In this document: positions 5,030 to 61,258 of the stretch, one piece after another | Position numbering within the stretch: the first letter of the stretch is position 1 | Layout of the letters: every line of letters begins with the position of its first letter | NCBI GenBank assembly: GCA_016716905.1 | Contig: JADJUS010000003.1 | Span: forward strand, 723,710 to 787,709 | Length of the DNA stretch: 64,000 nucleotides | Direction of reading: 5' to 3' | From: Acidobacteriota bacterium | GTDB taxonomy: Bacteria > Acidobacteriota > Vicinamibacteria > Vicinamibacterales > SCN-69-37 | The notes under the pieces: generated by a model | What the model saw: the letters and a program-made list of their open reading frames with translations, nothing else | What the model was told of the DNA's origin: nothing | Database searches by the model: none | Program-made: the position numbers and the translations under genes

Positions 5030-5319
5030 CACCATGAAGGACATGAAGATCCATGAAGGCGCCGGTTTGGGAGCCAGGCTTCGCCTGGCTGCGCGATCGG
5101 AGGGAACGCATGAATGAACAACGCCATTGTGGAAAGCGACCTCAGAGGTCTTACCTGAGCTGCGAGAGGACCTCTGAGGTCGTTTTCAGAAGGTGTTGTT
5201 CATTCATGCGTTCCCTCCGATCGTGCCTGCCGCCGGAGGCGGCGCCCAAACCGGTGATCGTCCCGGGGCTTCACGCGACCATCCTGGGGCTTCATGGATC
5301 TTCATGGATCTTCATGGTG
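5030..5319. repeat. ~290-bp nested inverted-repeat (cruciform) element between ppdK and corA
   Basis: Arms pair 5030-5058/5290-5319, 5060-5071/5245-5256, 5091-5125/5192-5226 and 5132-5150/5169-5187, with side hairpins at 5072-5090 and 5229-5243. Confidence 0.9.
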
Positions 5320-5337
5320 AATACCCGGTAGATACCG

Positions 5338-6303
5338 ATGATCACAGTTCTCGTGCACCGGGAAGGGCAGACGCGCCAGGTCGACGCGGTCGATCTGGCG
5401 TGGCTCGCTCCCGGGGCATCCGAGAAGCTGTGGGTCGACATCGAGCTGCCGGACGACGGTGCCAAGGATCTGCTGCAGCAGACATTCAAGTTGCACGAAC
5501 TCTCGCTTGAGGACGCGCTCAGTGAGATCCATCATCCGAAGATCGAGCTCTTCGATCACTACCTCTATCTGATCCTCCACGGCATCCTGCCGGGCGCCGG
5601 CGGGCGCGGGTTTGAGACGAACGACATCGATTTTTTTCTGGGCGATCGGTTCCTGGTGACCGTGCACCACGCGCCGTCTCGATCGATCAGCCAGGAACAG
5701 CAGTTGTGCCTGCGAAATACCTACGTGCTCGGAGAGGGGCCGGCCGGCCTCCTGCATCGCATCATCGACGCGATGGTCGATCACTACCGCCCTGAAGTGG
5801 ACGCGCTGGAAGACCGGTTGGAGGCGCTCGAAGACCGCGTGTTCGAGAACCCGCGCGAGAATCCCGTGCGCGACATCCTGACGCTCAAGCGCGATGTGTC
5901 GTCGTTGCGGCGCGTGGCGTTGCCCCAGCGTGATGCCATCGGCCGGCTGGCCCGCAGGGAGTTTGAACTCATTCCCGACGCGATGGCCTATCGCTTCCGC
6001 GACGTGTACGACCATCTCGTGCAGCTCACGGACGAAGCGATCTTCTTCCAGGATCGCGTGACGGGCCTGCTCGACGCCTACCTCTCGAGCCAGTCGAATC
6101 GGCTCAACCAGGTCATGAAGGTGTTGACCGTCATGTCCACCATCTTCCTGCCGCTCACGGTGCTCACGGGCCTGTACGGCATGAACGTCGTGATTCCCCA
6201 TCTGCCCGGGCCTGACTGGGCGCAGTTCTGGTGGATCGTCGGCATGGCCGGCGTGATCGTTGCCTCGATGCTGGCGGCCTTCCGTTGGAAGGACTGGCTG
6301 TGA
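5338..6303 (+). CDS. corA: CorA-family Mg2+/Co2+ transporter
   Basis: HPKIE, YGMN signature, two C-terminal TM helices, LNQVMKVLT. Confidence 0.93.
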   Translation: MITVLVHREGQTRQVDAVDLAWLAPGASEKLWVDIELPDDGAKDLLQQTFKLHELSLEDALSEIHHPKIELFDHYLYLILHGILPGAGGRGFETNDIDFFLGDRFLVTVHHAPSRSISQEQQLCLRNTYVLGEGPAGLLHRIIDAMVDHYRPEVDALEDRLEALEDRVFENPRENPVRDILTLKRDVSSLRRVALPQRDAIGRLARREFELIPDAMAYRFRDVYDHLVQLTDEAIFFQDRVTGLLDAYLSSQSNRLNQVMKVLTVMSTIFLPLTVLTGLYGMNVVIPHLPGPDWAQFWWIVGMAGVIVASMLAAFRWKDWL

Positions 6304-8114
6304 ACCGCATCCACCGGCTGCCGCCCGAACTCGCGAATCAGATCGCGGCCGGTGAGGTGGTCGAGCGGCCCGCATCGGTCGTCAAGGAACTGGTGGAAAA
6401 TGCGCTGGACGCCGGAGCCACGCGCATCGCGGTGGTCGTGGAGTTCGGCGGCAAGAAACTGATTTCCGTGGAAGACGACGGGATGGGGATGTCGGCGGAA
6501 GATGCGCACCTGGCCGTGGAGCGTCATGCCACGAGCAAGATTCGCGCAGCCGGCGATCTGGCCGCCATCCTGACCCTGGGATTCCGCGGCGAGGCGCTGC
6601 CGTCGATCGCGTCGGTGTCGAAGTTCCGGTTGCGCACGCGCGAGCGGGGCGCGTTGAGCGGCACCGAGATTCGTATCGATGCCGGCGTCACGGTATCGGA
6701 CCGCGAAGTGGGCGCGCCGGAAGGCACACTCATCGAGGTGTCGGACCTGTTCTACAACCTTCCCGCCCGCCGGAAATTCCTGAAGGCCGACACCGCCGAA
6801 GCGGCGCAGGTCTCGAGGCTGGTCACGCAGATGGCCCTCGGGTACCCCGAGGTGGGATTCACGCTCAGAAGCAAAGACCGCGTGCTCATTGAAGCGCCAC
6901 CCGCCGGGTCAAGTGAGGAACGCTTCTATCAAATCTACGGCGATCGCCCAGACCTCGTGCCGGTGAACAAGCAGGCCGCCGGCATGAGCGTGACCGGTTT
7001 CGCGGCCGCACTGGCGGAACAGGGACCGGTGCGTGGACCGCAGCATGTGTTCGTCAACCGGCGCCTCGTGAAGGACCGGACCATCGCGCACGCCATTCAG
7101 CAGGCCTATAGCGTGGCCACGATCAAGGAGCGCAGCCCCGAGGTGCATCTGTTCCTCGAAGTGCCGCCCGATCGCATCGACGTGAACGTGCATCCCACGA
7201 AAGCCGAGGTCCGCTTCCTCGATCAGGGCCTGGTGCACGAGGTGCTGCGCCGGGCGTTGGTGGATTCGCTGGGGCAGGGGAGCGCGCCGGAGCTGGTGCT
7301 TCGACCCGGCATGCCGGCGCCAGGGCAACCGGGCAGCACCGCGCTGCCATGGTCGTTCGAGGCCTCCCCCTCGTCAGGCATCGGCCAGGGCGTGTTCGGT
7401 ATGCGCGCCGAGGTGGAAGGCGCGCTGGCGCACGCGATCGATCAGGGCATTCCGGCGCAGTGGCCGGCGGGGCAGCCTGGCCAGCCCGACCCGCGCATGG
7501 GCCTGGTGGCCGGTCATGGTACGGTTTCGACGCTCATCAAGCCGATGGTGCCCCTGGGCCAGTTCCGTAACACCTTCATCATCGCGGTGGATGACGATGG
7601 GGTGGCGATTATTGATCAGCATGTGGCGCACGAGCGGATCCTGTTTGAGCAGATCGCCGAGCGGCTGACCACAGGGCGTGTCGAGGTGCAGGCGTTGCTG
7701 ACGCCGGTCGTGCTCGAGCTGACGTCGGGCGAGCACCAGACGCTGCTCTCGCATGTGAAGGAGCTCACGCGGGTCGGTTTCGAGTTTGAGGACTTTGGCG
7801 GCAACAGCCTGCGCATCGCGGCCGTGCCGGCGCTCCTCGACTGGAACAAATGCGAGGCGGTCCTTCGCGCGGTGGCCACCGATCTCGATGGGTTGTCGCC
7901 GGGCGCCGGCGTAGACGTCGCTCTGCGCCAGATGGCGGCGACCATGGCCTGTCACGCGGCCGTGAAGGCCAACGACCCACTCACACGCGAGAAGATGCAG
8001 TACCTGCTCGACGAACTGCGCCGCACGTCGCACTCATCCGTGTGTCCACACGGACGCCCAGTCGTCCTTCGTCTGACGCGGCGGGAAATCGAACGCAACT
8101 TCGAAAGAACCTGA
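6300..8114 (+). CDS. mutL: DNA mismatch repair endonuclease MutL
   Basis: NQIAAGEVVERP, HATSKI, LGFRGEAL, DVNVHPTK, endonuclease motifs DQHVAHERILFE, ACH, CPHGRP. Start refined to the GTG overlapping the corA stop (GTGA). Confidence 0.96.
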   Translation: MNRIHRLPPELANQIAAGEVVERPASVVKELVENALDAGATRIAVVVEFGGKKLISVEDDGMGMSAEDAHLAVERHATSKIRAAGDLAAILTLGFRGEALPSIASVSKFRLRTRERGALSGTEIRIDAGVTVSDREVGAPEGTLIEVSDLFYNLPARRKFLKADTAEAAQVSRLVTQMALGYPEVGFTLRSKDRVLIEAPPAGSSEERFYQIYGDRPDLVPVNKQAAGMSVTGFAAALAEQGPVRGPQHVFVNRRLVKDRTIAHAIQQAYSVATIKERSPEVHLFLEVPPDRIDVNVHPTKAEVRFLDQGLVHEVLRRALVDSLGQGSAPELVLRPGMPAPGQPGSTALPWSFEASPSSGIGQGVFGMRAEVEGALAHAIDQGIPAQWPAGQPGQPDPRMGLVAGHGTVSTLIKPMVPLGQFRNTFIIAVDDDGVAIIDQHVAHERILFEQIAERLTTGRVEVQALLTPVVLELTSGEHQTLLSHVKELTRVGFEFEDFGGNSLRIAAVPALLDWNKCEAVLRAVATDLDGLSPGAGVDVALRQMAATMACHAAVKANDPLTREKMQYLLDELRRTSHSSVCPHGRPVVLRLTRREIERNFERT

Positions 8115-55159: not shown

Positions 55160-55199
55160 CGCCCGCGAGGTGACAGGATCACAATCAGGAGAACAACTG

Positions 55200-55703
55200 A
55201 TGAAGATGATGAAACCTGCCGGTTGGGCGGGCGTGCTTGGCGTGTTTCTCGGCGTGACCGTCCATGGAGGCGTTCAAGACCGATCGGACGTGCCGGACGT
55301 GATGACCAAGACCATCACGGAGCAGCTCGACGACGAGATCCCTGGCTGGACCATGGTCAGCGCTCCCGCGTGTGGCCCTGCCGGGCCGGCCAGCGCTGAT
55401 ATTGACTCCGACAAATCACTGGACGTGGCAATGGTCGTGAACACCCCTGGAGGTGAGGCGCGCATCGTTGTGGTGTTGCCGCGCGTGGTCGGCGGGGCAG
55501 TGGTGCACGACCTGGGACCATTGGCCGCTGTGTCGGGCGCGACCCACGTGGTGGTGGTGCCATTGGGCACCGCGGTCCGGGACCCAGGTGCGATGTTCGA
55601 TGACTATCTCTCCGGACCGACGTTTGCAGCGGCGTCCTGTGAGAAGGCTCTGACGGCGTTTCCCTGGGCGGGCACGGGTTTTCGGCAGCGTCCCCTGAGG
55701 TAG
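55200..55703 (+). CDS. Hypothetical secreted protein
   Basis: RBS AGGAG, signal-peptide-like N-terminus, FG-GAP-like ADIDSD-x-x-x-D-x-A, two Cys. Confidence 0.6.
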   Translation: MKMMKPAGWAGVLGVFLGVTVHGGVQDRSDVPDVMTKTITEQLDDEIPGWTMVSAPACGPAGPASADIDSDKSLDVAMVVNTPGGEARIVVVLPRVVGGAVVHDLGPLAAVSGATHVVVVPLGTAVRDPGAMFDDYLSGPTFAAASCEKALTAFPWAGTGFRQRPLR

Positions 55704-56498
55704 TCAGCGCGTCTTGGTCACCACCGTTGCCAGCAGATAACCGTGGCGGCGCACGGCGGGCACCCGCGCATCGAGTTGCACGAAGGGCCACACCAGCGCG
55801 CCGGTGATCGCCGACAGCGGCCGGCACCACGAGTGGCAGGCAAGGTCCAGCATCCTCAGCCACCCGGGGATGAAGAGGATTGAGGTCTCGGCGACGACGG
55901 TGAAACCCGCGCGTTCGAGCATGGTCCGGAGCTTGCGCCGCGAATAGGATTTTTCGTAACCATAGGCATAAAGCCCCAGCCACTGCATGACCGTGGCCAG
56001 CGCCGGCCGCAGAAACGGGTCGTGGCGATTCGGCACACCGATGATGGCGCGCCCACCCGGCTTGAGGACGCGGGCCATCTCCGCCACCGCGCGCTCGGTG
56101 GCATCGAAGTGTTCGATCGTGCCCATCGAATAGACCGCATCAAAACTATCGTCCTTGAAGGGAATGTCCCGCACATCGCCGGCGACACCTTGCAGGGGCC
56201 GGGCGTTAGGCTGGCCCGCGAAGGCGGCGCGTGCCTGCCGGACGGTGGGTTCGGAGATGTCGATGCCGAAGGCACGCGCACCCTGCTGGGCGGCCCACAA
56301 GAGAATGCGGGTGTTCTTGGCCTCATCCCACAAGTCGGTTTTGAGAATCGTCAGCCCCTCAAGCGCAGGGAAATGCTCGGTGAAGAGCCGTTCTTCATTT
56401 TGCGCGTAGTAGCGCGTGGACGCGGCGCCGCCGAGGTCGGGAAAACCCTTGCCAACTCCTTCCCAGAAGTTCTGGTATTTGCGTGCTCGGGTGGTCAT
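55704..56498 (-). CDS. Class I SAM-dependent methyltransferase (Methyltransf_11-like) with an atypical motif I
   Basis: GIDIS, GDVRDIPF, SFDAVYS-x-G-x-IEH, RVLKPGG; ILKTDLWDEA occupies the usual LD-x-G-x-G-x-G position. Confidence 0.85.
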   Translation of the reverse strand: MTTRARKYQNFWEGVGKGFPDLGGAASTRYYAQNEERLFTEHFPALEGLTILKTDLWDEAKNTRILLWAAQQGARAFGIDISEPTVRQARAAFAGQPNARPLQGVAGDVRDIPFKDDSFDAVYSMGTIEHFDATERAVAEMARVLKPGGRAIIGVPNRHDPFLRPALATVMQWLGLYAYGYEKSYSRRKLRTMLERAGFTVVAETSILFIPGWLRMLDLACHSWCRPLSAITGALVWPFVQLDARVPAVRRHGYLLATVVTKTR

Positions 56499-58464
56499 GG
56501 CTGTTCACTCCTGACGGTCCAACTCCAGGTGCTCAGCGCAAACGAGAGCGCACGCGTGTCGCCGTTGGTCACAAGGCCGGTCGTCATCGTTGGGCCCTGA
56601 GTGGCGTGAAAGGCCACTTGGTGGCTGCCGGAAGGGATGGTCAGCGGACCGATGTCGTAAATGCGCCGAGCGGGCTCCACCTGAAACGAGTACACCGGCC
56701 GTCCATCGACGCGCACTTCAAAGGGGCGCTCATGGTGAAACGCCGATAGCTCAAGACTCAGCGTGGCAACAATCGGCCCCGCGCTCCTGTTCACCACTGT
56801 CCACGCGGCCTGGGCGCCCATCCATCGCCAGGAGCGATCACCGTCACGCTCACGCGGGAAGAACCCGGTCATTTCGGCTGTGTAAATCGCTGGCACTGCA
56901 GCTGTGACCTTGAGCACCAGGCCGTCCTTCAGCCTGGCAGCCACCGCAGTGCCTTCAGGGGCCCGTCCCGAACCGAACGCGGCCGCGTCGTCCGAACCGC
57001 GCCGGATCAGGAGATGCGTGAAGCCCTCCGCGGCCAGTTTGTGAGCCACGTGGGATTCTCCGCAGTCACTGAACGGTCCACCGAGGAGCCTGACCCGATG
57101 TCCCGTCAGCCAAGGCACCGACGCCGAGGGCAACGAGTAGGGGCACGCAGTCGAGCACCTGCATGGGGCCGGGCTGGTCCATCACCCAGCGATGCGCCGT
57201 CGTCGGCATCACGTCGCGCCAAAGAGCAGACGGCCTCACCGCGTACTCCGCCGCCCCGAGGGCCAGCAGCAGCGCACACAGCGCCCTGGCGCCTGCCCAT
57301 TTGGAGGAGACGAGCACCGTGACGCCAAGGCCGGCCAGCAGCGCCACCATCAGTTGCACGACGCTGCCGAATCGCGCGTATGCGCGGAACATCGGCGCCA
57401 GTTCGTACAACCACGCGGATGGTCGAAGCATGGGAAACCCGCCATCACTCTGCTCGGGCGACAGCGAGCACAGCAGCGCGGTGAACGCGACGACGACGAG
57501 GACCGGGACCCAGCGCGTGGATTCGATGCGCCGACCCCTGATCAGCCACCAGGCGATGGCGACAAGGCCAAGCGCAACGAAGCCCCATCCCAGGCTGACC
57601 TGTTGCTCAAGGAGTCCCTCGCGAACGCCGGCTGCGTGCCAGAAGCGAAAGACGGATTGCGTGAGCAACGGGTGTTCGATGGGAGGGACAAGATAGCTCA
57701 CCCACTTCGCGCTGTAGTGAGAGAGGTCGGCCTTCGGAAAGGCAAAGGCGCTACGATTCGTCACGACCTCGCCGGCTGTGAAGGACACATACGCCAGGCC
57801 CGCTGCGGCGATGGCGGTCAGCGTTCCGGCGGTTATAGCCAGTCGACGCAGCGGTTGCGGGTGGGTGCGCAGGCCAACAAGCCAGTATGCGAGCAGGGCC
57901 ACCGGTGTGATCACGGCGGCAATGAAACCCGAGTAGAAATTTGAGAGCGTCACGGTTGCCGTTGCTGCGGCGAGCCAGGCGATGGCCCACGGTGTGGGTC
58001 GATCCACGCACCGCCACAACGCCAGTAGGTAGAAGGGCAGCCACTGCGTTTGTGCGATGTGCGGATGGTAGGCCGCCTGCGCCAGATGGAAGGGGGAGAA
58101 GGCGAAGACCACCGCCGCGACGGCAGCGCCCGCTGGTGCGAGGCAGAGATGGCGCGCCAGCAGGTACGCAAAGGCCGCCGAGAGTGGGAAGGTGAGGAGG
58201 ACGAGCCAGTTGTAGGCGGCAACCGGGCCCGCGACTCCGAGCGATCAATGCACCTGGAATATCAGTGAGGGGCTGGGCGTAGATGCCATTACCGAGCGGA
58301 CGCTCGAACTGTGCCATCACGGTGAATGGATCGTGATGCCGGCCGACAATCTCCATGCCGAAGATGCGGTCGGACGGCGCGCGCAGCACCGGCCAGGCCA
58401 TGACCACGGTGATAACCGTGGCGACAGCGACGATGATTGCAACTTCAGCGACGCGTCTGGACAC
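56495..58464 (-). pseudogene. GT-C/YfhO-like multi-TM glycosyltransferase split by two frameshifts (near 58236 and 57140-57143)
   Basis: Three track ORFs (57751-58464, 57066-58112, 56495-57133) join into one ~655-aa membrane protein (GRHHDPF, AAYNW, FAFSPFH, FRAYARF). Overlaps with both neighbours (20 bp and ATGA) support a single gene. Confidence 0.75.
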
Positions 58465-59800
58465 TGGCGACCACCGCGGCCATCACCAACACCGGACCGG
58501 CCACGGCCCAGGCGCGGATTGCCGGCACCCACGTCACCAGGTCTGGTGGCGCGGCCATGACGTGCAGAGCGAAGAGACCGGCGGCGTGGGACACTGCGAG
58601 CACCACGAGTCCTCCGAGCGGCCGCCGCCAGTGGACTGTCGTCAGTGCCGCCACCCACAGGGCCAGGTAGAGTCCGATCTGAAAGCCCGGCAGGAACATC
58701 AGGGCGCCTTGCGGGCCTTCACTGAGCGCTGCCGATGGGAACGCCACAAGCCGAGTGTAGACCGGCGCCAGCACCAGCACAGAAAGCGTACCGGCCATGA
58801 TGCCGGCCGCGGCGTATCGGAAGGCGCCGTCGCGCTTGTGGCGCCAATGTGCGGCCACTCCCACGACCACGGCGCCAAGGAGCAACTGATAAAACGCGTG
58901 CACCAGGAACTCCGGCGACGCAATGATGGTGGCGGGCACGGCCACGACGAGCAGCCGCAGGATGCCCAGCAGGATAAACAGTGGAATCGCGGCCAGCAGG
59001 CCAAGGGTGAGCCGGCGCCAGCTCGGAGCATACGCACACACGGCCGCGATGTAGACAGGGATGAGCGGCGTGGAAATGCACTCGTGTGTGACGAGAAACC
59101 CACCGCGGAGCGTCCACAGAACATTCGCTGCGGCGTGAGCGGTGGCGCCCGACGCGCTCAGAATCAGTGCCGCTGATTGGGCGATGAAGCCAGTCAGTGC
59201 CGCGGTCGCATCGCTGCTTGTGTAGAGCGGCGAGACGGCCGCAAAGGTCAACAGGAACAGGCCGGTGAGAAGCACAAATGTGCGCGTGGGGTGCGCGACG
59301 GCAGGCAGCGTCGTGTGGCGGTCGGCGACTCGCATCCAGATAAATATGTAACCGGCAATCGAAATTGTCAGAAGCGCCGGCCACGCGTGGACGTGCAGCG
59401 CCGTGAACCAGGCTGGTGAGCCGGCTGCCCAGCCCAGGGTACCGATTCGCGCTGTATTAAGGATCAGGATGAGGGTGACACCGGCCAACATGCCTGCCAG
59501 CCGGGAGCGCCACGCCGCAGGGTAGGCCACGATCGCCGCCAGACACAGTGCCAGAGCATCCGAACCGCTGCAGGCGAGCGTCACCGCCACGGGTGCCGCG
59601 GGTGCGCCAAGCAGCCACACCGCGGCGTCGGCCTGCGCGCGCGTCATCGGCAGCAGAATGTGCGTCTCGGTCCATGGCAGACGCAGCAGGGCGAAGAGGC
59701 CAAGGCTGGCCGCGATGGCCCGGGCCACAAACCTGCCGGCGTCTGTCGAGCCGACGAACCGTCTAGGCTGAGGCAGCAGCTCGGCGGTGGCCGTCGGCAC
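58445..59800 (-). CDS. Exosortase/archaeosortase-family (XrtH-like) protein with tandem repeated domains
   Basis: Domain 1: ACSG, NTAR, LH. Domain 2: HECIS, GILR, VH. AGGAGG lies 7 nt before the GTG at 59800, which overlaps the speD end. Confidence 0.75.
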   Translation of the reverse strand: MPTATAELLPQPRRFVGSTDAGRFVARAIAASLGLFALLRLPWTETHILLPMTRAQADAAVWLLGAPAAPVAVTLACSGSDALALCLAAIVAYPAAWRSRLAGMLAGVTLILILNTARIGTLGWAAGSPAWFTALHVHAWPALLTISIAGYIFIWMRVADRHTTLPAVAHPTRTFVLLTGLFLLTFAAVSPLYTSSDATAALTGFIAQSAALILSASGATAHAAANVLWTLRGGFLVTHECISTPLIPVYIAAVCAYAPSWRRLTLGLLAAIPLFILLGILRLLVVAVPATIIASPEFLVHAFYQLLLGAVVVGVAAHWRHKRDGAFRYAAAGIMAGTLSVLVLAPVYTRLVAFPSAALSEGPQGALMFLPGFQIGLYLALWVAALTTVHWRRPLGGLVVLAVSHAAGLFALHVMAAPPDLVTWVPAIRAWAVAGPVLVMAAVVASVQTRR

Positions 59801-60052
59801 GCGGGACCTCCTGAATCGACACGCTCGCTGCTCCCAGAGCGCGTGCCATTTCGGCGATGGCCCCACGGCTGTCGAGTCGTGCCGAGCACGAGAAAATGTC
59901 GAGATGCGCCGTCCCACTCTCGGGCCATGAGTGCAGCACCGCGTGTGACTCCGCGAGAATCAGCACCGACGTGAGACCGTTGTCGGGAAAATGATGCGAT
60001 GCGGTTTGCACTATCGTGGCTCCCGCTTTCGTCAGTGCGCTGACGAAAGTGA
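59763..60052 (-). pseudogene. speD: S-adenosylmethionine decarboxylase proenzyme (SpeD/SpeH type), 5'-truncated
   Basis: AGATIV...HHF-P-x-x-G-x-TSV-x-x-LAESH (E|S pyruvoyl site), HSWPE, DIFSC. About 25-30 N-terminal residues and the start codon are missing. Confidence 0.82.
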
Positions 60053-61258
60053 TTGTTGCCGCCGACGCTACCGAACGGGATCGTCGCGGCGGCGTATAAC
60101 CAGGTGATCACGGGCAGCGGAGGCACCGCGCCGTACGCCTTCGGTGTGTCGAGCGGCGTGCTGCCAGCGGGTACCACGCTGTCCGCCGCCGGCGTCCTGG
60201 CCGGAACGCCCACGGCTGCCGCGACCTCGATAGCGACCATCCGCGGCACCGACGCCAACGGCTGTTTCGCCGAGGTGGTGTATACGATCGTCATCGCGCC
60301 GGCCGTACCGCCACCGCCTGTGTGTCCGGTGATCACATTGTTGCCGCCGACGCTGCCGAACGGCATCGTCGCGGTGGCGTATAACCAGGCGATCACGGGC
60401 AGCGGAGGCACCGCGCCCTACACCTTCGGTGTGACGAGCGGCGTGTTGCCGACGGGCCTGACGCTGACCGGCACCGGCGTGTTGTCGGGCACGCCGACGA
60501 CTGCGGCCACCTCCACCGTCACGATTCGCGGCACCGACGCCAACGGCTGCTTCGCGGAGGTGGTGTTGACGATCGTGATCGCACCGGCCGTACCGCCGCC
60601 GCCCGTGTGTCCGGTGATCACGTTGTCGCCGCCGACGCTACCGAACGGCATCGTCGGGGTGGGGTATAGCCAGACGATTACCGGCAACGGTGGCACCGCG
60701 CCGTACACCTTCGGCGTGACGAGCGGTGCGCTGCCGGCGGGACTGACTCTGACTTCGGCGGGCGTGTTGTCGGGGACACCGACGACCGTCGGTACCACGT
60801 CCGTGACGATTCGTGGGACGGACGCCAATGGCTGTTTCGCCGAAGTGGTCTACACGATGATCGAGCTACCTGCAGAGGTGCCTCCGTGTCTGGTGCCGAT
60901 CACATTTGACCCGGCGACGTTTGGCCCGATCACCGCGGGGGTCTTTTTCAGTCAGGCGTTTATTGGCAGCCTGGGGACACCTGCGTATGTGTTTACGGTC
61001 GTATCAGGCGCCCTGCCCACGGGCATGACGCTCTCTCCGGCTGGTGTGCTCTCGGGCACTCCCACGTCCGCAGGCGACTACACATTCACCATTGGCGCGA
61101 CCGATGCCTTGTTGTGCGTGTTTGAGCGCTCGTACACAGCAACGGTTATCGTCGCGGTGCCGACGCTGCCGCAGATCTTCATGGTGCTGCTGGCTGTGGG
61201 GCTGATCGGCCTGGGATATGTGCGGCTCCGCCGGAACTCGACGCATCGTCTCGCATAG
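60053..61258 (+). CDS. Surface protein with four putative-Ig (He_PIG-like) repeats and a C-terminal IPTL-CTERM-like sorting signal; 5'-truncated
   Basis: 95-aa (285-bp) repeats at 60053, 60338, 60623 and a diverged fourth (LP-x-G-x-TL...G-x-LSGTPT); C-terminus VPTLPQ + TM + RLRR; no signal peptide. Confidence 0.82.
   Translation: MLPPTLPNGIVAAAYNQVITGSGGTAPYAFGVSSGVLPAGTTLSAAGVLAGTPTAAATSIATIRGTDANGCFAEVVYTIVIAPAVPPPPVCPVITLLPPTLPNGIVAVAYNQAITGSGGTAPYTFGVTSGVLPTGLTLTGTGVLSGTPTTAATSTVTIRGTDANGCFAEVVLTIVIAPAVPPPPVCPVITLSPPTLPNGIVGVGYSQTITGNGGTAPYTFGVTSGALPAGLTLTSAGVLSGTPTTVGTTSVTIRGTDANGCFAEVVYTMIELPAEVPPCLVPITFDPATFGPITAGVFFSQAFIGSLGTPAYVFTVVSGALPTGMTLSPAGVLSGTPTSAGDYTFTIGATDALLCVFERSYTATVIVAVPTLPQIFMVLLAVGLIGLGYVRLRRNSTHRLA

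What the first reader, a model, noticed from the sequence alone, without database searches (positions are those of the whole stretch)
55704..61258. Candidate novel sorting/anchoring system: exosortase coupled to SAM decarboxylase, a GT-C glycosyltransferase and an odd methyltransferase, facing its VPTL-CTERM substrate
Seen in sequence: four minus-strand genes overlap end to end (speD/xrt 38 bp, xrt/GT 20 bp, GT/MTase ATGA), so they form one operon, and the divergent gene ends in VPTLPQ-TM-RLRR. Established: exosortase H acts on IPTL-CTERM proteins, and exo/archaeosortases swap the C-terminal motif for an amine acceptor (Haloferax ArtA needs PssA and the pyruvoyl decarboxylase PssD to supply phosphatidylethanolamine). 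AdoMetDC makes decarboxylated SAM, an aminopropyl donor, yet no spermidine synthase is in this locus. Inference: the decarboxylase, SAM-fold protein and GT-C enzyme could build an aminopropylated glycan/glycolipid used as the sortase nucleophile or as a surface-protein modification. I do not know of a described system with this composition.
Basis: partly seen in the sequence, partly recalled or inferred. Interest (0 to 1): 0.88.

Follow-up and report, generated by a model that had tools for sequence, protein, structure and literature searches.

The report
Damaged copy of tandem-exosortase SAM-enzyme cassette
This is a partly deleted copy of a widely conserved but apparently undescribed soil and sludge Acidobacteria gene set in which a doubled protein-sorting enzyme (exosortase) is tied to, and sometimes fused with, a SAM decarboxylase and a methyltransferase-like enzyme; the intact form may help show what exosortases attach surface proteins to.

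Summary
The gene overlaps (38 bp, 20 bp, ATGA) and the VPTLPQ-TM-RLRR tail are exactly as described.

This copy is damaged:
- speD lacks its first ~28 codons.
- The "substrate" begins mid-repeat, with no signal peptide and no N-terminal Ice_binding domain.
- Contigs from three independent wastewater metagenomes confirm this junction, so it is a real deletion of the divergent promoter region.

The two frameshifts in the GT-C gene are errors of this assembly; the extra bases are absent in four metagenomes.

Across 72 species-level loci (mostly Vicinamibacterales):
- speD lies directly upstream of the exosortase in 61/68.
- The cargo gene is nearby in 55/62.
- DUF6311 (GT-C fold by structure prediction) follows in 42/57.
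- The methyltransferase-like gene follows in 50/57.

All 24 exosortase-positive genomes of 151 sampled carry AdoMet_dc, against 25/127 without it. No spermidine synthase lies within 40 kb. Fusions exist in several forms: exosortase-MT (about 18 clusters), triple fusions in two domain orders, and MT-AdoMetDC.

The exosortase is a tandem with two invariant Cys/Arg/His triads. Functional coupling is well supported. The idea that the SAM enzymes build an amine acceptor remains an inference (about 0.3). I found no published description.

The parts
55704..56498 (-). Class I methyltransferase-fold protein (264 aa), intact. It lacks the usual GxGxG loop and has a conserved K53-T-D55-L-W-D-E-A instead.
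   Evidence: Methyltransf_11 80.7 bits. AF2 model pLDDT 86, with top folds RebM/TleD/MitM. D55 is invariant and its neighbours are >=90% conserved.
56495..58464 (-). DUF6311-type GT-C-fold membrane glycosyltransferase with a C-terminal CBM-like beta-sandwich. In the window it is split into three frames by two spurious inserted bases (57140, 58237).
   Evidence: ORFs. The indels are absent in C14 and in 4 metagenomes. Relatives have PF19830. The model of the L002 orthologue has pLDDT 85 and best matches STT3, AftD, ArnT, Emb, PglB and Pmt4. D46-P47 in the first loop is invariant.
58445..59800 (-). Tandem exosortase (451 aa) with two modules, each with a Cys/Arg/His triad (C77/R118/H136 and C241/R282/H301).
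   Evidence: TIGR04178 44.9 bits > 23; XrtH 66.3 < 86. There are 847+ full-length homologues. The triads are invariant in 24 sequences.
59763..60056 (-). Remnant of a pyruvoyl AdoMetDC-type decarboxylase. It aligns to residues 29-118 of intact 126-aa relatives. The first in-frame start is GTG 60011. The ESH...H...C processing motif is still present.
   Evidence: AdoMet_dc profile 37-107. In-frame upstream homology 'FVSALTKAGATIV' has no start codon. tblastn with the L002 protein.
60026..60049 (.). Perfect 10-bp inverted repeat (ctttcgtcag tgcg ctgacgaaag) inside the speD remnant, next to the deletion breakpoint (about 60050-60056).
   Evidence: Read from the sequence.
60053..61258 (+). Cargo remnant: four He_PIG repeats plus the sorting tail. 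It has no signal peptide and no Ice_binding domain.
   Evidence: He_PIG 142 bits, 4 stretches. Three 285-bp repeats start at 60052. It aligns to L033 residues 413-715/715, L018 237-539/543 and L026 233-454/458.
61157..61255 (+). C-terminal sorting signal: VPTLPQ, a hydrophobic helix, then RLRR.
   Evidence: Translation. IPTL_CTERM TIGR04174 scores 18.6 bits, just under the 20.5 cut-off. The same VPT[LM]P[QE] tail occurs in 42 of 61 relatives' cargo ORFs.

Best explanation
The locus is a partly deleted copy of a conserved Vicinamibacteria (Acidobacteriota) protein-sorting cassette.

In intact relatives, a Sec-exported cargo is transcribed divergently from an operon of overlapping genes. The cargo has a signal peptide, an Ice_binding beta-solenoid, zero to several He_PIG domains, and a VPT[L/M]-x-x / membrane helix / Arg-rich tail. 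The operon encodes:
- a 126-aa class-1b AdoMetDC-type pyruvoyl decarboxylase;
- a 450-aa exosortase made of two catalytic modules;
- usually a GT-C-fold membrane glycosyltransferase (DUF6311);
- a methyltransferase-fold enzyme with an acidic loop in place of GxGxG.

Shown here: the synteny, the genome-wide co-occurrence, and fusions joining decarboxylase, exosortase and MT-fold enzyme in several orders. These three therefore work together.

Inferred: the exosortase cleaves the cargo at the VPT[L/M] motif. The two SAM enzymes sit on the cytoplasmic face. They install a SAM-derived amine-bearing group (most simply 3-aminopropyl) on a membrane acceptor, which takes over the cargo's new C-terminus. 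This could run via dcSAM plus an aminopropyl transfer, or via aminocarboxypropyl transfer followed by decarboxylation. The GT-C enzyme glycosylates the cargo or the acceptor on the outer face.

In this genome, one deletion removed the shared promoter region, speD codons 1-28, and the cargo's signal peptide and Ice_binding domain. The system cannot work here as in relatives, although the exosortase, GT-C and MT genes remain intact.

My odds: cassette membership and damage 0.9; functional coupling of the three enzymes 0.8; the amine-acceptor mechanism 0.3.
For: Cassette:
- Contexts L002-L004.
- 72 species loci with speD upstream in 61/68, cargo in 55/62, DUF6311 in 42/57 and MT in 50/57.

Co-occurrence:
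- 24/24 tandem-exosortase genomes have AdoMet_dc, against 25/127 without it (Fisher p = 1.4e-14).
- speD lies within 6 kb of the exosortase in 19/24.
- Spermine_synth occurs in 140/151 genomes regardless and is never within 40 kb of the cassette in 11 genomes.
- Genomes with two speD genes keep one beside the exosortase and one beside a SpeE-like gene (G140, G052, G016).

Fusions:
- P0126: AdoMet_dc-exosortase-MT.
- P0133 and P0134: exosortase-MT-AdoMet_dc.
- About 18 clusters at 50% identity of 700-740-aa exosortase-MT proteins.
- L049: exosortase-MT.
- L080: MT-AdoMet_dc.

Catalytic features:
- Two invariant Cys/Arg/His triads.
- S/H/C processing residues and the Pro of HTWPE are retained (PMC10407285).
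- The intact relative passes the AdoMetDC equivalog cut-off (81.1 > 75.65).
- GT-C fold.
- MT fold with conserved KTDLWDEA.

Damage:
-.
- The junction is confirmed in X1, X2 and X3, and the frameshifts are refuted in four runs.
Against: - No experiment bears on any step, and no exosortase acceptor is known.
- The cassette speD is the only AdoMet_dc in 12/12 cassette genomes tested. Those genomes hold SpeE-like proteins elsewhere, so it could also serve polyamine synthesis.
- The SAM enzymes must act in the cytoplasm, while cleavage is expected at the outer face. An acceptor would therefore have to flip.
- DUF6311 is missing from about 25% of loci.
- Some apparent speD-exosortase fusions (P0121, P0125) carry garbled stretches. 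These are probably frameshift artefacts of long-read MAGs.
- In this genome the exosortase, GT-C and MT stay intact without speD or cargo. This is odd if they are useless alone.
Confidence: 0.6

Rival explanations
1. speD is simply the organism's housekeeping AdoMetDC for polyamine synthesis that happens to sit in this operon. The MT-fold enzyme is an ordinary methyltransferase, for example of the glycan, and neither has anything to do with sorting chemistry.
For: - There is exactly one AdoMet_dc per genome in 12/12 cassette genomes.
- Spermine_synth-domain proteins occur elsewhere in 11/12 of them.
- The intact relative passes the AdoMetDC equivalog threshold.
- G049 has the exosortase, but its only speD lies beside a SpeE-like gene.
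Against: - Only 49/151 genomes of the class have any AdoMet_dc while 140/151 have Spermine_synth. The SpeE-like proteins therefore do not track speD, whereas the exosortase does (24/24).
- The speD stop overlaps the exosortase start in dozens of species.
- Triple fusions occur in two domain orders, and an MT-AdoMet_dc fusion exists.
- Genomes with two speD genes keep one at each kind of locus.
Confidence: 0.15
2. The three enzymes are coupled, but the SAM-derived group and the glycan decorate the cargo protein or a surface polymer. This would be a post-translational modification tied to export, and they would not supply the nucleophile that releases cargo from the exosortase.
For: - The GT-C fold with a CBM-like domain resembles protein- or glycan-modifying enzymes such as STT3/PglB, Pmt and DPY19.
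- The cargo has Pro/Gly-rich linkers before the tail.
- MT-fold relatives in the PDB are small-molecule, sugar or phospho-base methyltransferases.
Against: - The SAM enzymes are cytoplasmic, while the cargo is modified after export.
- Fusion to the exosortase itself, rather than to the GT-C, points to the sorting step.
- The MT-AdoMet_dc pair also occurs without the GT-C in about a quarter of loci.
Confidence: 0.2
3. The decarboxylase is neofunctionalised. In one version it does not act on SAM but on an amino-acid-like adduct, for example an aminocarboxypropyl group first placed by the MT-fold enzyme, as MccD/MccE do in microcin C. In another it acts on arginine or ornithine, as other SpeD homologues do.
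For: - SpeD homologues have repeatedly become arginine or ornithine decarboxylases (PMC10407285).
- Cassette proteins score near or below the AdoMetDC equivalog cut-off (81.1, 77.1, 74.6, 69.2 and 67.9 against 75.65).
- The MT-fold protein's fold matches include the aminocarboxypropyl transferase MccD (5fcd, rank 35 of more than 1000). This is only a weak lead.
Against: - The Pro of HTWPE, reported as conserved in bona fide AdoMetDC and not in the arginine decarboxylases, is retained (PMC10407285, figure not seen).
- G009 and G049 have an exosortase(-MT) without an adjacent speD. They may rely on a speD elsewhere, which suggests a common diffusible product such as dcSAM.
Confidence: 0.2
4. The truncations are assembly artefacts or irrelevant, and the window's system is functional. 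This would work through another start codon, another cargo elsewhere, or the in-frame speD'-exosortase fusion seen in some strains.
For: - The window does contain assembly errors (57140, 58237).
- A 1-nt deletion at 59789 in X2 and X3 fuses the speD remnant in frame to the exosortase.
- The exosortase, GT-C and MT are intact.
- Two tiny metatranscriptome contigs map to the exosortase/GT genes.
Against: - The junction is contiguous and free of indels in three independent metagenome assemblies.
- The genome is 100% complete yet has no other AdoMet_dc, no Ice_binding gene and no other VPTL-tailed ORF.
- The missing 28 residues include the first core beta-strand of the AdoMetDC fold.
- The cargo ORF has stop codons in all three frames just upstream.
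Confidence: 0.07

Closest known systems
Exosortase H / IPTL-CTERM system (NCBIfam TIGR04177, TIGR04174; Pfam PF18203)
   Same: It is the best-scoring exosortase subfamily. The cargo tails are IPTL-like: some relatives pass TIGR04174 at 24.8 and 44.1 bits. It is also a small dedicated system with one or few cargo genes next to the sortase.
   Different: - XrtH is a ~158-aa single module. This protein is ~450 aa with two complete catalytic modules.
- It scores 66-77 bits, below the 86-bit cut-off, in the window and in L002.
- The tail here is the VPT[LM]P[QE] variant, which falls just below the IPTL cut-off (18.6 < 20.5).
- None of the models I saw for XrtH includes an AdoMetDC, MT-fold or GT-C partner.
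Archaeosortase A with PssA/PssD in Haloferax volcanii (PMC7157517)
   Same: A Cys-dependent exo/archaeosortase whose cargo maturation needs a two-step pathway ending in a pyruvoyl decarboxylase, which creates a primary amine on a lipid. In Methanosarcina, artA, pssA and pssD are syntenic. The paper proposes the amine as the nucleophile that resolves the thioester.
   Different: The decarboxylase families differ (phosphatidylserine decarboxylase versus AdoMetDC). The donor chemistry also differs (CDP-lipid plus serine versus SAM). The system here is bacterial and has tight operon overlap and physical fusions, which the archaeal system lacks.
SpeD/SpeE polyamine pathway and neofunctionalised SpeD homologues (PMC10407285)
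   Same: A class-1b AdoMetDC fold with the S63/H68/C83-equivalent residues. The MT-fold partner could play the role of an aminopropyltransferase, which is also a methyltransferase-fold enzyme.
   Different: No Spermine_synth domain lies in or near the cassette. The partner belongs to the Methyltransf_11 type and has KTDLWDEA instead of the SpeE GGGDGG-type loop. The enzymes are tied to a membrane peptidase and not to putrescine metabolism.
MccD/MccE aminopropylation of microcin C (my own knowledge; MccD structure 5fcd appears among the fold matches)
   Same: A methyltransferase-fold enzyme transfers a 3-amino-3-carboxypropyl group from SAM, and a decarboxylase then converts it to an aminopropyl group. 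This is a precedent for 'MT-fold plus decarboxylase equals aminopropyl decoration'.
   Different: The MccE decarboxylase is PLP-dependent, not pyruvoyl. The acceptor is a peptidyl-nucleotide antibiotic. The fold match to MccD is no closer than to hundreds of other methyltransferases.
GT-C glycosyltransferases (STT3/PglB, ArnT, AftD/Emb, Pmt, DPY19)
   Same: The predicted fold of the DUF6311 protein matches these at Foldseek probability 1.0 (E 5e-8 to 1e-4). It has an invariant Asp-Pro in the first extracytoplasmic loop and a C-terminal soluble domain.
   Different: TM-scores are only about 0.4 and sequence identity about 10%. There is no Pfam or NCBIfam hit other than DUF6311 and a weak PTPS_related match. 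Donor and acceptor are unknown.

Membership tests
Exosortase/archaeosortase superfamily (TIGR04178) | Signature domain score above cut-off | tested here: met
   44.9 bits against a cut-off of 23.
Exosortase/archaeosortase superfamily (TIGR04178) | Conserved Cys, Arg and His catalytic residues in membrane helices | tested here: met
   C77/R118/H136 and C241/R282/H301 are invariant in 24 homologues. Both modules carry the triad.
Exosortase H (TIGR04177) | Score above NCBIfam cut-off (86 bits) | tested here: not met
   Window 66.3 bits, L002 77.2 bits; only P0121 reaches 87.1.
Exosortase H (TIGR04177) | Single-module protein of about 158 aa | tested here: not met
   The protein is 451 aa with two modules. 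The family of more than 847 homologues is 440-470 aa.
IPTL-CTERM sorting domain (TIGR04174 / PF18203) | C-terminal motif + TM helix + basic tail scoring above cut-off (20.5 bits) | tested here: not met
   The window tail scores 18.6 bits. Relatives range from below cut-off (19.2) to 24.8 and 44.1 bits. The tripartite architecture itself is present.
Sortase-type cargo | N-terminal signal peptide so that the tail reaches the membrane from outside | tested here: not met
   The ORF begins MLPPTLPNG inside a repeat, with stop codons upstream in frame. Relatives have signal peptides.
AdoMetDC class 1b (PF02675 / TIGR03330) | Full-length domain above the equivalog cut-off (75.65) | tested here: not met
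   The window remnant scores 64.3 bits and covers profile positions 42-111 only. The intact relative L002 scores 81.1 bits and passes.
AdoMetDC class 1b (PF02675 / TIGR03330) | Self-processing Ser and catalytic His and Cys (T. maritima S63, H68, C83) | tested here: met
   AESHAVLHSWPESGTAHLDIFSC in the window; SESHAVLHTWPE...DIFSC in relatives, aligned to 1TLU (PMC10407285).
AdoMetDC class 1b (PF02675 / TIGR03330) | Decarboxylates SAM and works with a spermidine synthase | not testable with these tools
   No Spermine_synth domain lies within 40 kb in 11 genomes. Activity was not assayed.
GT-C glycosyltransferases | Multi-helix membrane fold like STT3/ArnT/AftD with an acidic residue in the first outer loop | tested here: met
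   Model pLDDT 85, pTM 0.82. All top Foldseek hits are GT-C enzymes (E down to 5e-8). D46 is invariant after TM1.
Class I SAM-dependent methyltransferases (PF08241) | Rossmann-like fold and Pfam score | tested here: met
   80.7 bits. The model has pLDDT 86, with RebM/TleD/MitM as top folds.
Class I SAM-dependent methyltransferases (PF08241) | Gly-rich motif I (GxGxG) after strand 1 | tested here: not met
   Replaced by LKTDLWDEAKNT. D55 is invariant and K53, T54, L56, W57, D58, E59 are >=90% conserved. Pfam and PDB alignments start after this loop.

The most novel reading that the evidence does not exclude
The cassette encodes the first genetically defined acceptor pathway of a bacterial exosortase. 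The AdoMetDC-type enzyme and the MT-fold enzyme, docked on or fused to the tandem exosortase, would build a 3-aminopropyl (SAM-derived) amine on a membrane lipid or glycolipid. The exosortase would then transfer the cargo's new C-terminus onto that amine, with one module perhaps cleaving and the other transferring.
Probability: 0.3. Interest if true: 0.9.

Novelty: new variant of a known kind. Interest (0 to 1): 0.66.

Why it matters
Exosortases are widespread, yet what they attach their cargo to has never been shown. The only clue so far comes from archaea (ArtA with PssA/PssD).

This system is compact and self-contained, with one cargo, one sortase and two or three helper enzymes. It is conserved in dozens of species and repeatedly fused, which narrows the candidate chemistry to a SAM-derived group. 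It could be reconstituted in E. coli and read out by mass spectrometry.

The system also adds three things:
- a possible new use of the AdoMetDC fold outside polyamine synthesis;
- a methyltransferase-fold family with an acidic loop instead of GxGxG;
- a two-active-site exosortase.

This particular window adds a natural variant that has lost speD and cargo but kept the rest. It also carries a caution: its frameshifts are assembly errors.

Tried and rejected
1. Misassembly of the speD/He_PIG junction. Rejected, because contigs from X1, X2 and X3 cross it.
2. GT-C pseudogene. Rejected, because both extra bases are absent in four metagenomes and in C14.
3. A missing speD N-terminus in another frame or elsewhere in the genome. 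tblastn finds only residues 29-118, once.
4. Other cargo in this genome. A six-frame scan for [VI]PT[LV] + TM + basic tails found only the remnant, and there is no Ice_binding homologue.
5. C14 as a co-binned strain. Only its two ends match other contigs, so a segmental duplicate is more likely. Depth ratios (1.2-1.8) did not settle this.
6. speD-exosortase fusions P0121 and P0125 as evidence. Discounted, because they contain out-of-frame stretches.
7. Expression. Metatranscriptomes gave only two contigs of 180 and 263 nt, which is inconclusive.
8. Literature searches for exosortase + SAM decarboxylase, IPTL-CTERM, XrtH and DUF6311 returned nothing relevant.
9. Pfam in this copy did not report DUF6311 for the L002 protein, although the precomputed annotation does. 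I relied on the fold instead.
10. Fold search of the MT-like protein gave generic methyltransferases, with no special closeness to spermidine synthases or MccD.

Full report
**What is in the window**

On the minus strand lie four genes:
- a 264-aa methyltransferase-fold gene (55704-56498);
- a roughly 655-aa membrane protein gene (56495-58464);
- a 451-aa exosortase gene (58445-59800);
- a short AdoMet_dc ORF (59763-60011).

On the plus strand, ORF 60053-61258 has four He_PIG repeats and ends VPTLPQ / hydrophobic helix / RLRR. The flanking VWA gene matches the acidobacterial model TIGR03436. The window is C3:723710-787709 of a 5.25-Mb, 22-contig genome rated 100% complete. Its sequence recurs in many wastewater and activated-sludge metagenomes.

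**What is wrong with this copy**

1. The membrane protein gene reads in three frames. Compared with a second copy at the end of contig C14 (98.9% identical over 4.1 kb), the window has one extra base at 57140 and one at 58237. Contigs of four independent metagenomes (X1, X2, X3, X5) all lack both bases. The frameshifts are therefore errors of this assembly and the gene is intact in nature.

2. speD is truncated.
   - From its first start codon it covers only AdoMet_dc profile positions 37-107.
   - The in-frame translation upstream still reads FVSALTKAGATIV, matching FCSALQRAGATVV of relatives, but has no start codon.
   - tblastn with an intact 126-aa relative aligns residues 29-118 and stops at window 60056.

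3. The facing ORF starts at 60053, inside the first copy of a 285-bp repeat. Stop codons lie just upstream, and there is no signal peptide.
   - It aligns to the C-terminal parts of relatives' cargo proteins: L033 residues 413-715 of 715, L018 237-539 of 543, L026 233-454 of 458.
   - In those proteins the N-terminal parts hold the signal peptide and an Ice_binding domain.

One deletion explains both truncations. It spans the cargo's 5' half, the divergent promoter region and speD codons 1-28. The junction is crossed without indels by contigs from X1, X2 and X3, so it is real. The genome holds no other AdoMet_dc, no Ice_binding homologue and no other VPTL-tailed ORF.

**The cassette in relatives**

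The exosortase has more than 847 full-length homologues of 440-470 aa at about 60% identity. Three long contigs showed the same layout. A divergent Ice_binding/IPTL-CTERM protein faces AdoMet_dc (126 aa), an exosortase (453 aa), DUF6311 (about 660 aa) and a methyltransferase (about 280 aa). The speD stop overlaps the exosortase start.

A scan of species-representative genomes gave 72 loci, nearly all Vicinamibacterales or unclassified Acidobacteriota MAGs. The tallies are:

| Feature | Loci with feature / loci with enough flank |
|---|---|
| speD directly upstream, same strand | 61/68 |
| Cargo gene within 4 kb | 55/62 |
| DUF6311 next | 42/57 |
| MT gene within 3.5 kb | 50/57 |

Cargo tails read VPTL in 33 and VPTM in 9 of 61 called ORFs. 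Gene order varies in a few loci: speD-MT-exosortase in L081, and rearranged in L059, L060 and L062.

**Is speD there for polyamines?**

In a sample of 151 genomes of the class:
- AdoMet_dc occurs in 49;
- the tandem exosortase occurs in 24;
- Spermine_synth occurs in 140.

All 24 exosortase genomes have AdoMet_dc, against 25 of 127 others (Fisher p = 1.4e-14). In 19 of the 24, the two lie within 6 kb of each other.

In 11 cassette genomes the nearest Spermine_synth hit over the Pfam cut-off is hundreds of kilobases away or on another contig; one sub-threshold hit lies 47 kb away. These hits sit in 500-1900-aa open frames.

The class holds two other speD contexts: canonical speD-speE, and speD followed about 3.4 kb later by a roughly 500-aa SpeE-like gene. 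Genomes with two speD genes keep one at each kind of locus (G140, G052, G016).

The cassette speD is therefore a dedicated partner of the exosortase. It is, however, the only AdoMet_dc in 12 of 12 cassette genomes checked, so a second role in polyamine synthesis cannot be excluded. The window's genus- and family-mates (G137, G146, G017) lack both genes, so the cassette is patchy in distribution.

**Fusions**

- P0126 (851 aa, clean sequence) is AdoMet_dc / tandem exosortase / MT.
- P0133 (850 aa) and P0134 (831 aa) are exosortase / MT / AdoMet_dc, a different order.
- About 18 clusters at 50% identity are 700-740-aa exosortase-MT proteins. L049 is one such protein, on a 307-kb short-read contig.
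- L080 encodes an MT-AdoMet_dc fusion in a genome without the tandem exosortase.

Two apparent speD-exosortase fusions (P0121, P0125) contain garbled stretches, and I discount them.

**The parts**

*Exosortase.* It has two modules, each with invariant Cys, Arg and His: TLACSG...NTLRIGTLG...LHV, and VTQECIS...RLLVVA...VHAFYQ. It passes the superfamily signature but not XrtH (66.3 < 86).

*Decarboxylase.* The ES|H processing site, the His and the Cys equivalent to T. maritima S63/H68/C83 are kept, as is the Pro of HTWPE (PMC10407285). The intact relative passes the AdoMetDC equivalog cut-off, while others fall just below it.

*DUF6311.* The AF2 model has pLDDT 85 and pTM 0.82. Its best matches are STT3, AftD, ArnT, Emb, DPY19, AftA, PglB and Pmt4. 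The C-terminal beta-sandwich matches CBM6/35-type modules, and D46-P47 after the first helix is invariant.

*MT-fold protein.* The model has pLDDT 86 and matches ordinary class I methyltransferases. Pfam and PDB alignments start only after strand 1, and the Gly-rich loop is replaced by a conserved KTDLWDEA.

**How it most likely works**

Shown: these genes travel together and are fused.

Inferred:
- The exosortase cleaves the exported cargo at VPT[L/M].
- The two SAM enzymes must be cytoplasmic, and in fusions they sit at the N- or C-terminus of the exosortase. They would make a SAM-derived amine on a membrane acceptor.
- That acceptor receives the cargo, by analogy with ArtA/PssA/PssD (PMC7157517).

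Two routes give the same aminopropyl product. In one, dcSAM is made and an aminopropyl group is then transferred. The acidic loop of the MT-fold enzyme would suit a cofactor without a carboxylate, as in spermidine synthases (my own knowledge). In the other, aminocarboxypropyl transfer is followed by decarboxylation, as in MccD/MccE (my own knowledge).

The GT-C enzyme is absent from about a quarter of loci, so it is an accessory. I put this mechanism at about 0.3.

**This genome**

Here the system lacks its decarboxylase and an exportable cargo, while the exosortase, GT-C and MT remain open. Either the deletion is recent or these genes have some residual use. Metatranscriptome evidence is too thin to tell.

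**Novelty**

Full-text searches found no paper linking exosortases with AdoMetDC, and nothing on XrtH or DUF6311. No NCBIfam model names this exosortase subfamily or its partners. Earlier agents of this scan reached the same cassette in other genomes. This is not independent evidence, but it shows the cassette recurs.

I file it as a new variant of a known kind, an exosortase sorting system. This window holds a damaged member of it.

Noticed in passing
window 55176-59302 and 61192-61237; L001 (G000:C14:194000-212835): A second copy of the MT / GT-C / exosortase C-terminal half lies at the end of contig C14 (98.9% identical, 19 small indels). There, window 59303-61191 is missing, so the exosortase has lost its first module, and an OMP-like gene and an FtsX/MacB-type permease gene are inserted before a 90%-identical VWA paralogue. 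The same 59299>61192 joint appears in metagenome X3. C14 shares only its two ends with other contigs, which suggests a segmental duplication, not a co-binned strain.
   Followed up: partly
window 59789: One base is absent in contigs of X2 and X3 but present in X5 and the window. Without it, the speD remnant reads in frame into the exosortase (...EVPRADG|TAELLPQPRRFVGSTD...), giving a natural speD'-exosortase fusion allele.
   Followed up: partly
window 57567, 58774, 58782: All four metagenomes and C14 read T, T and A where the window has G, C and G. These are probably further consensus errors of this assembly in the duplicated segment.
   Followed up: partly
L080 (G089:C2) 5375-6712 (-): A single ORF fuses the same odd MT-fold domain to an AdoMet_dc domain in a genome with no tandem exosortase. 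It sits next to a TonB-dependent receptor gene. The SAM-enzyme pair can therefore exist without the sortase.
   Followed up: partly
L078 (G009:C24) 5150-7000 (-): In a genome whose exosortase-MT fusion (L049) has no adjacent speD, the only speD elsewhere overlaps by 41 bp a 484-aa polytopic membrane protein with no family match.
   Followed up: partly
L079 (G128:C1): A third speD context is common in this class: speD, then a DUF4178 protein, then a roughly 500-aa SpeE-like protein about 3.4 kb downstream (G041, G083, G026, G128, G056, G040, G061, G091).
   Followed up: no
window 60026-60049: A perfect 10-bp inverted repeat with a 4-nt loop lies inside the speD remnant, right beside the deletion breakpoint. 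It may be chance, or it may relate to how the deletion arose.
   Followed up: no
whole genome G000: G000 is 5.25 Mb, while the two same-genus genomes sampled are 3.1-3.2 Mb and lack both speD and the exosortase. Much of this genome, including the cassette, may be lineage-specific gain.
   Followed up: no
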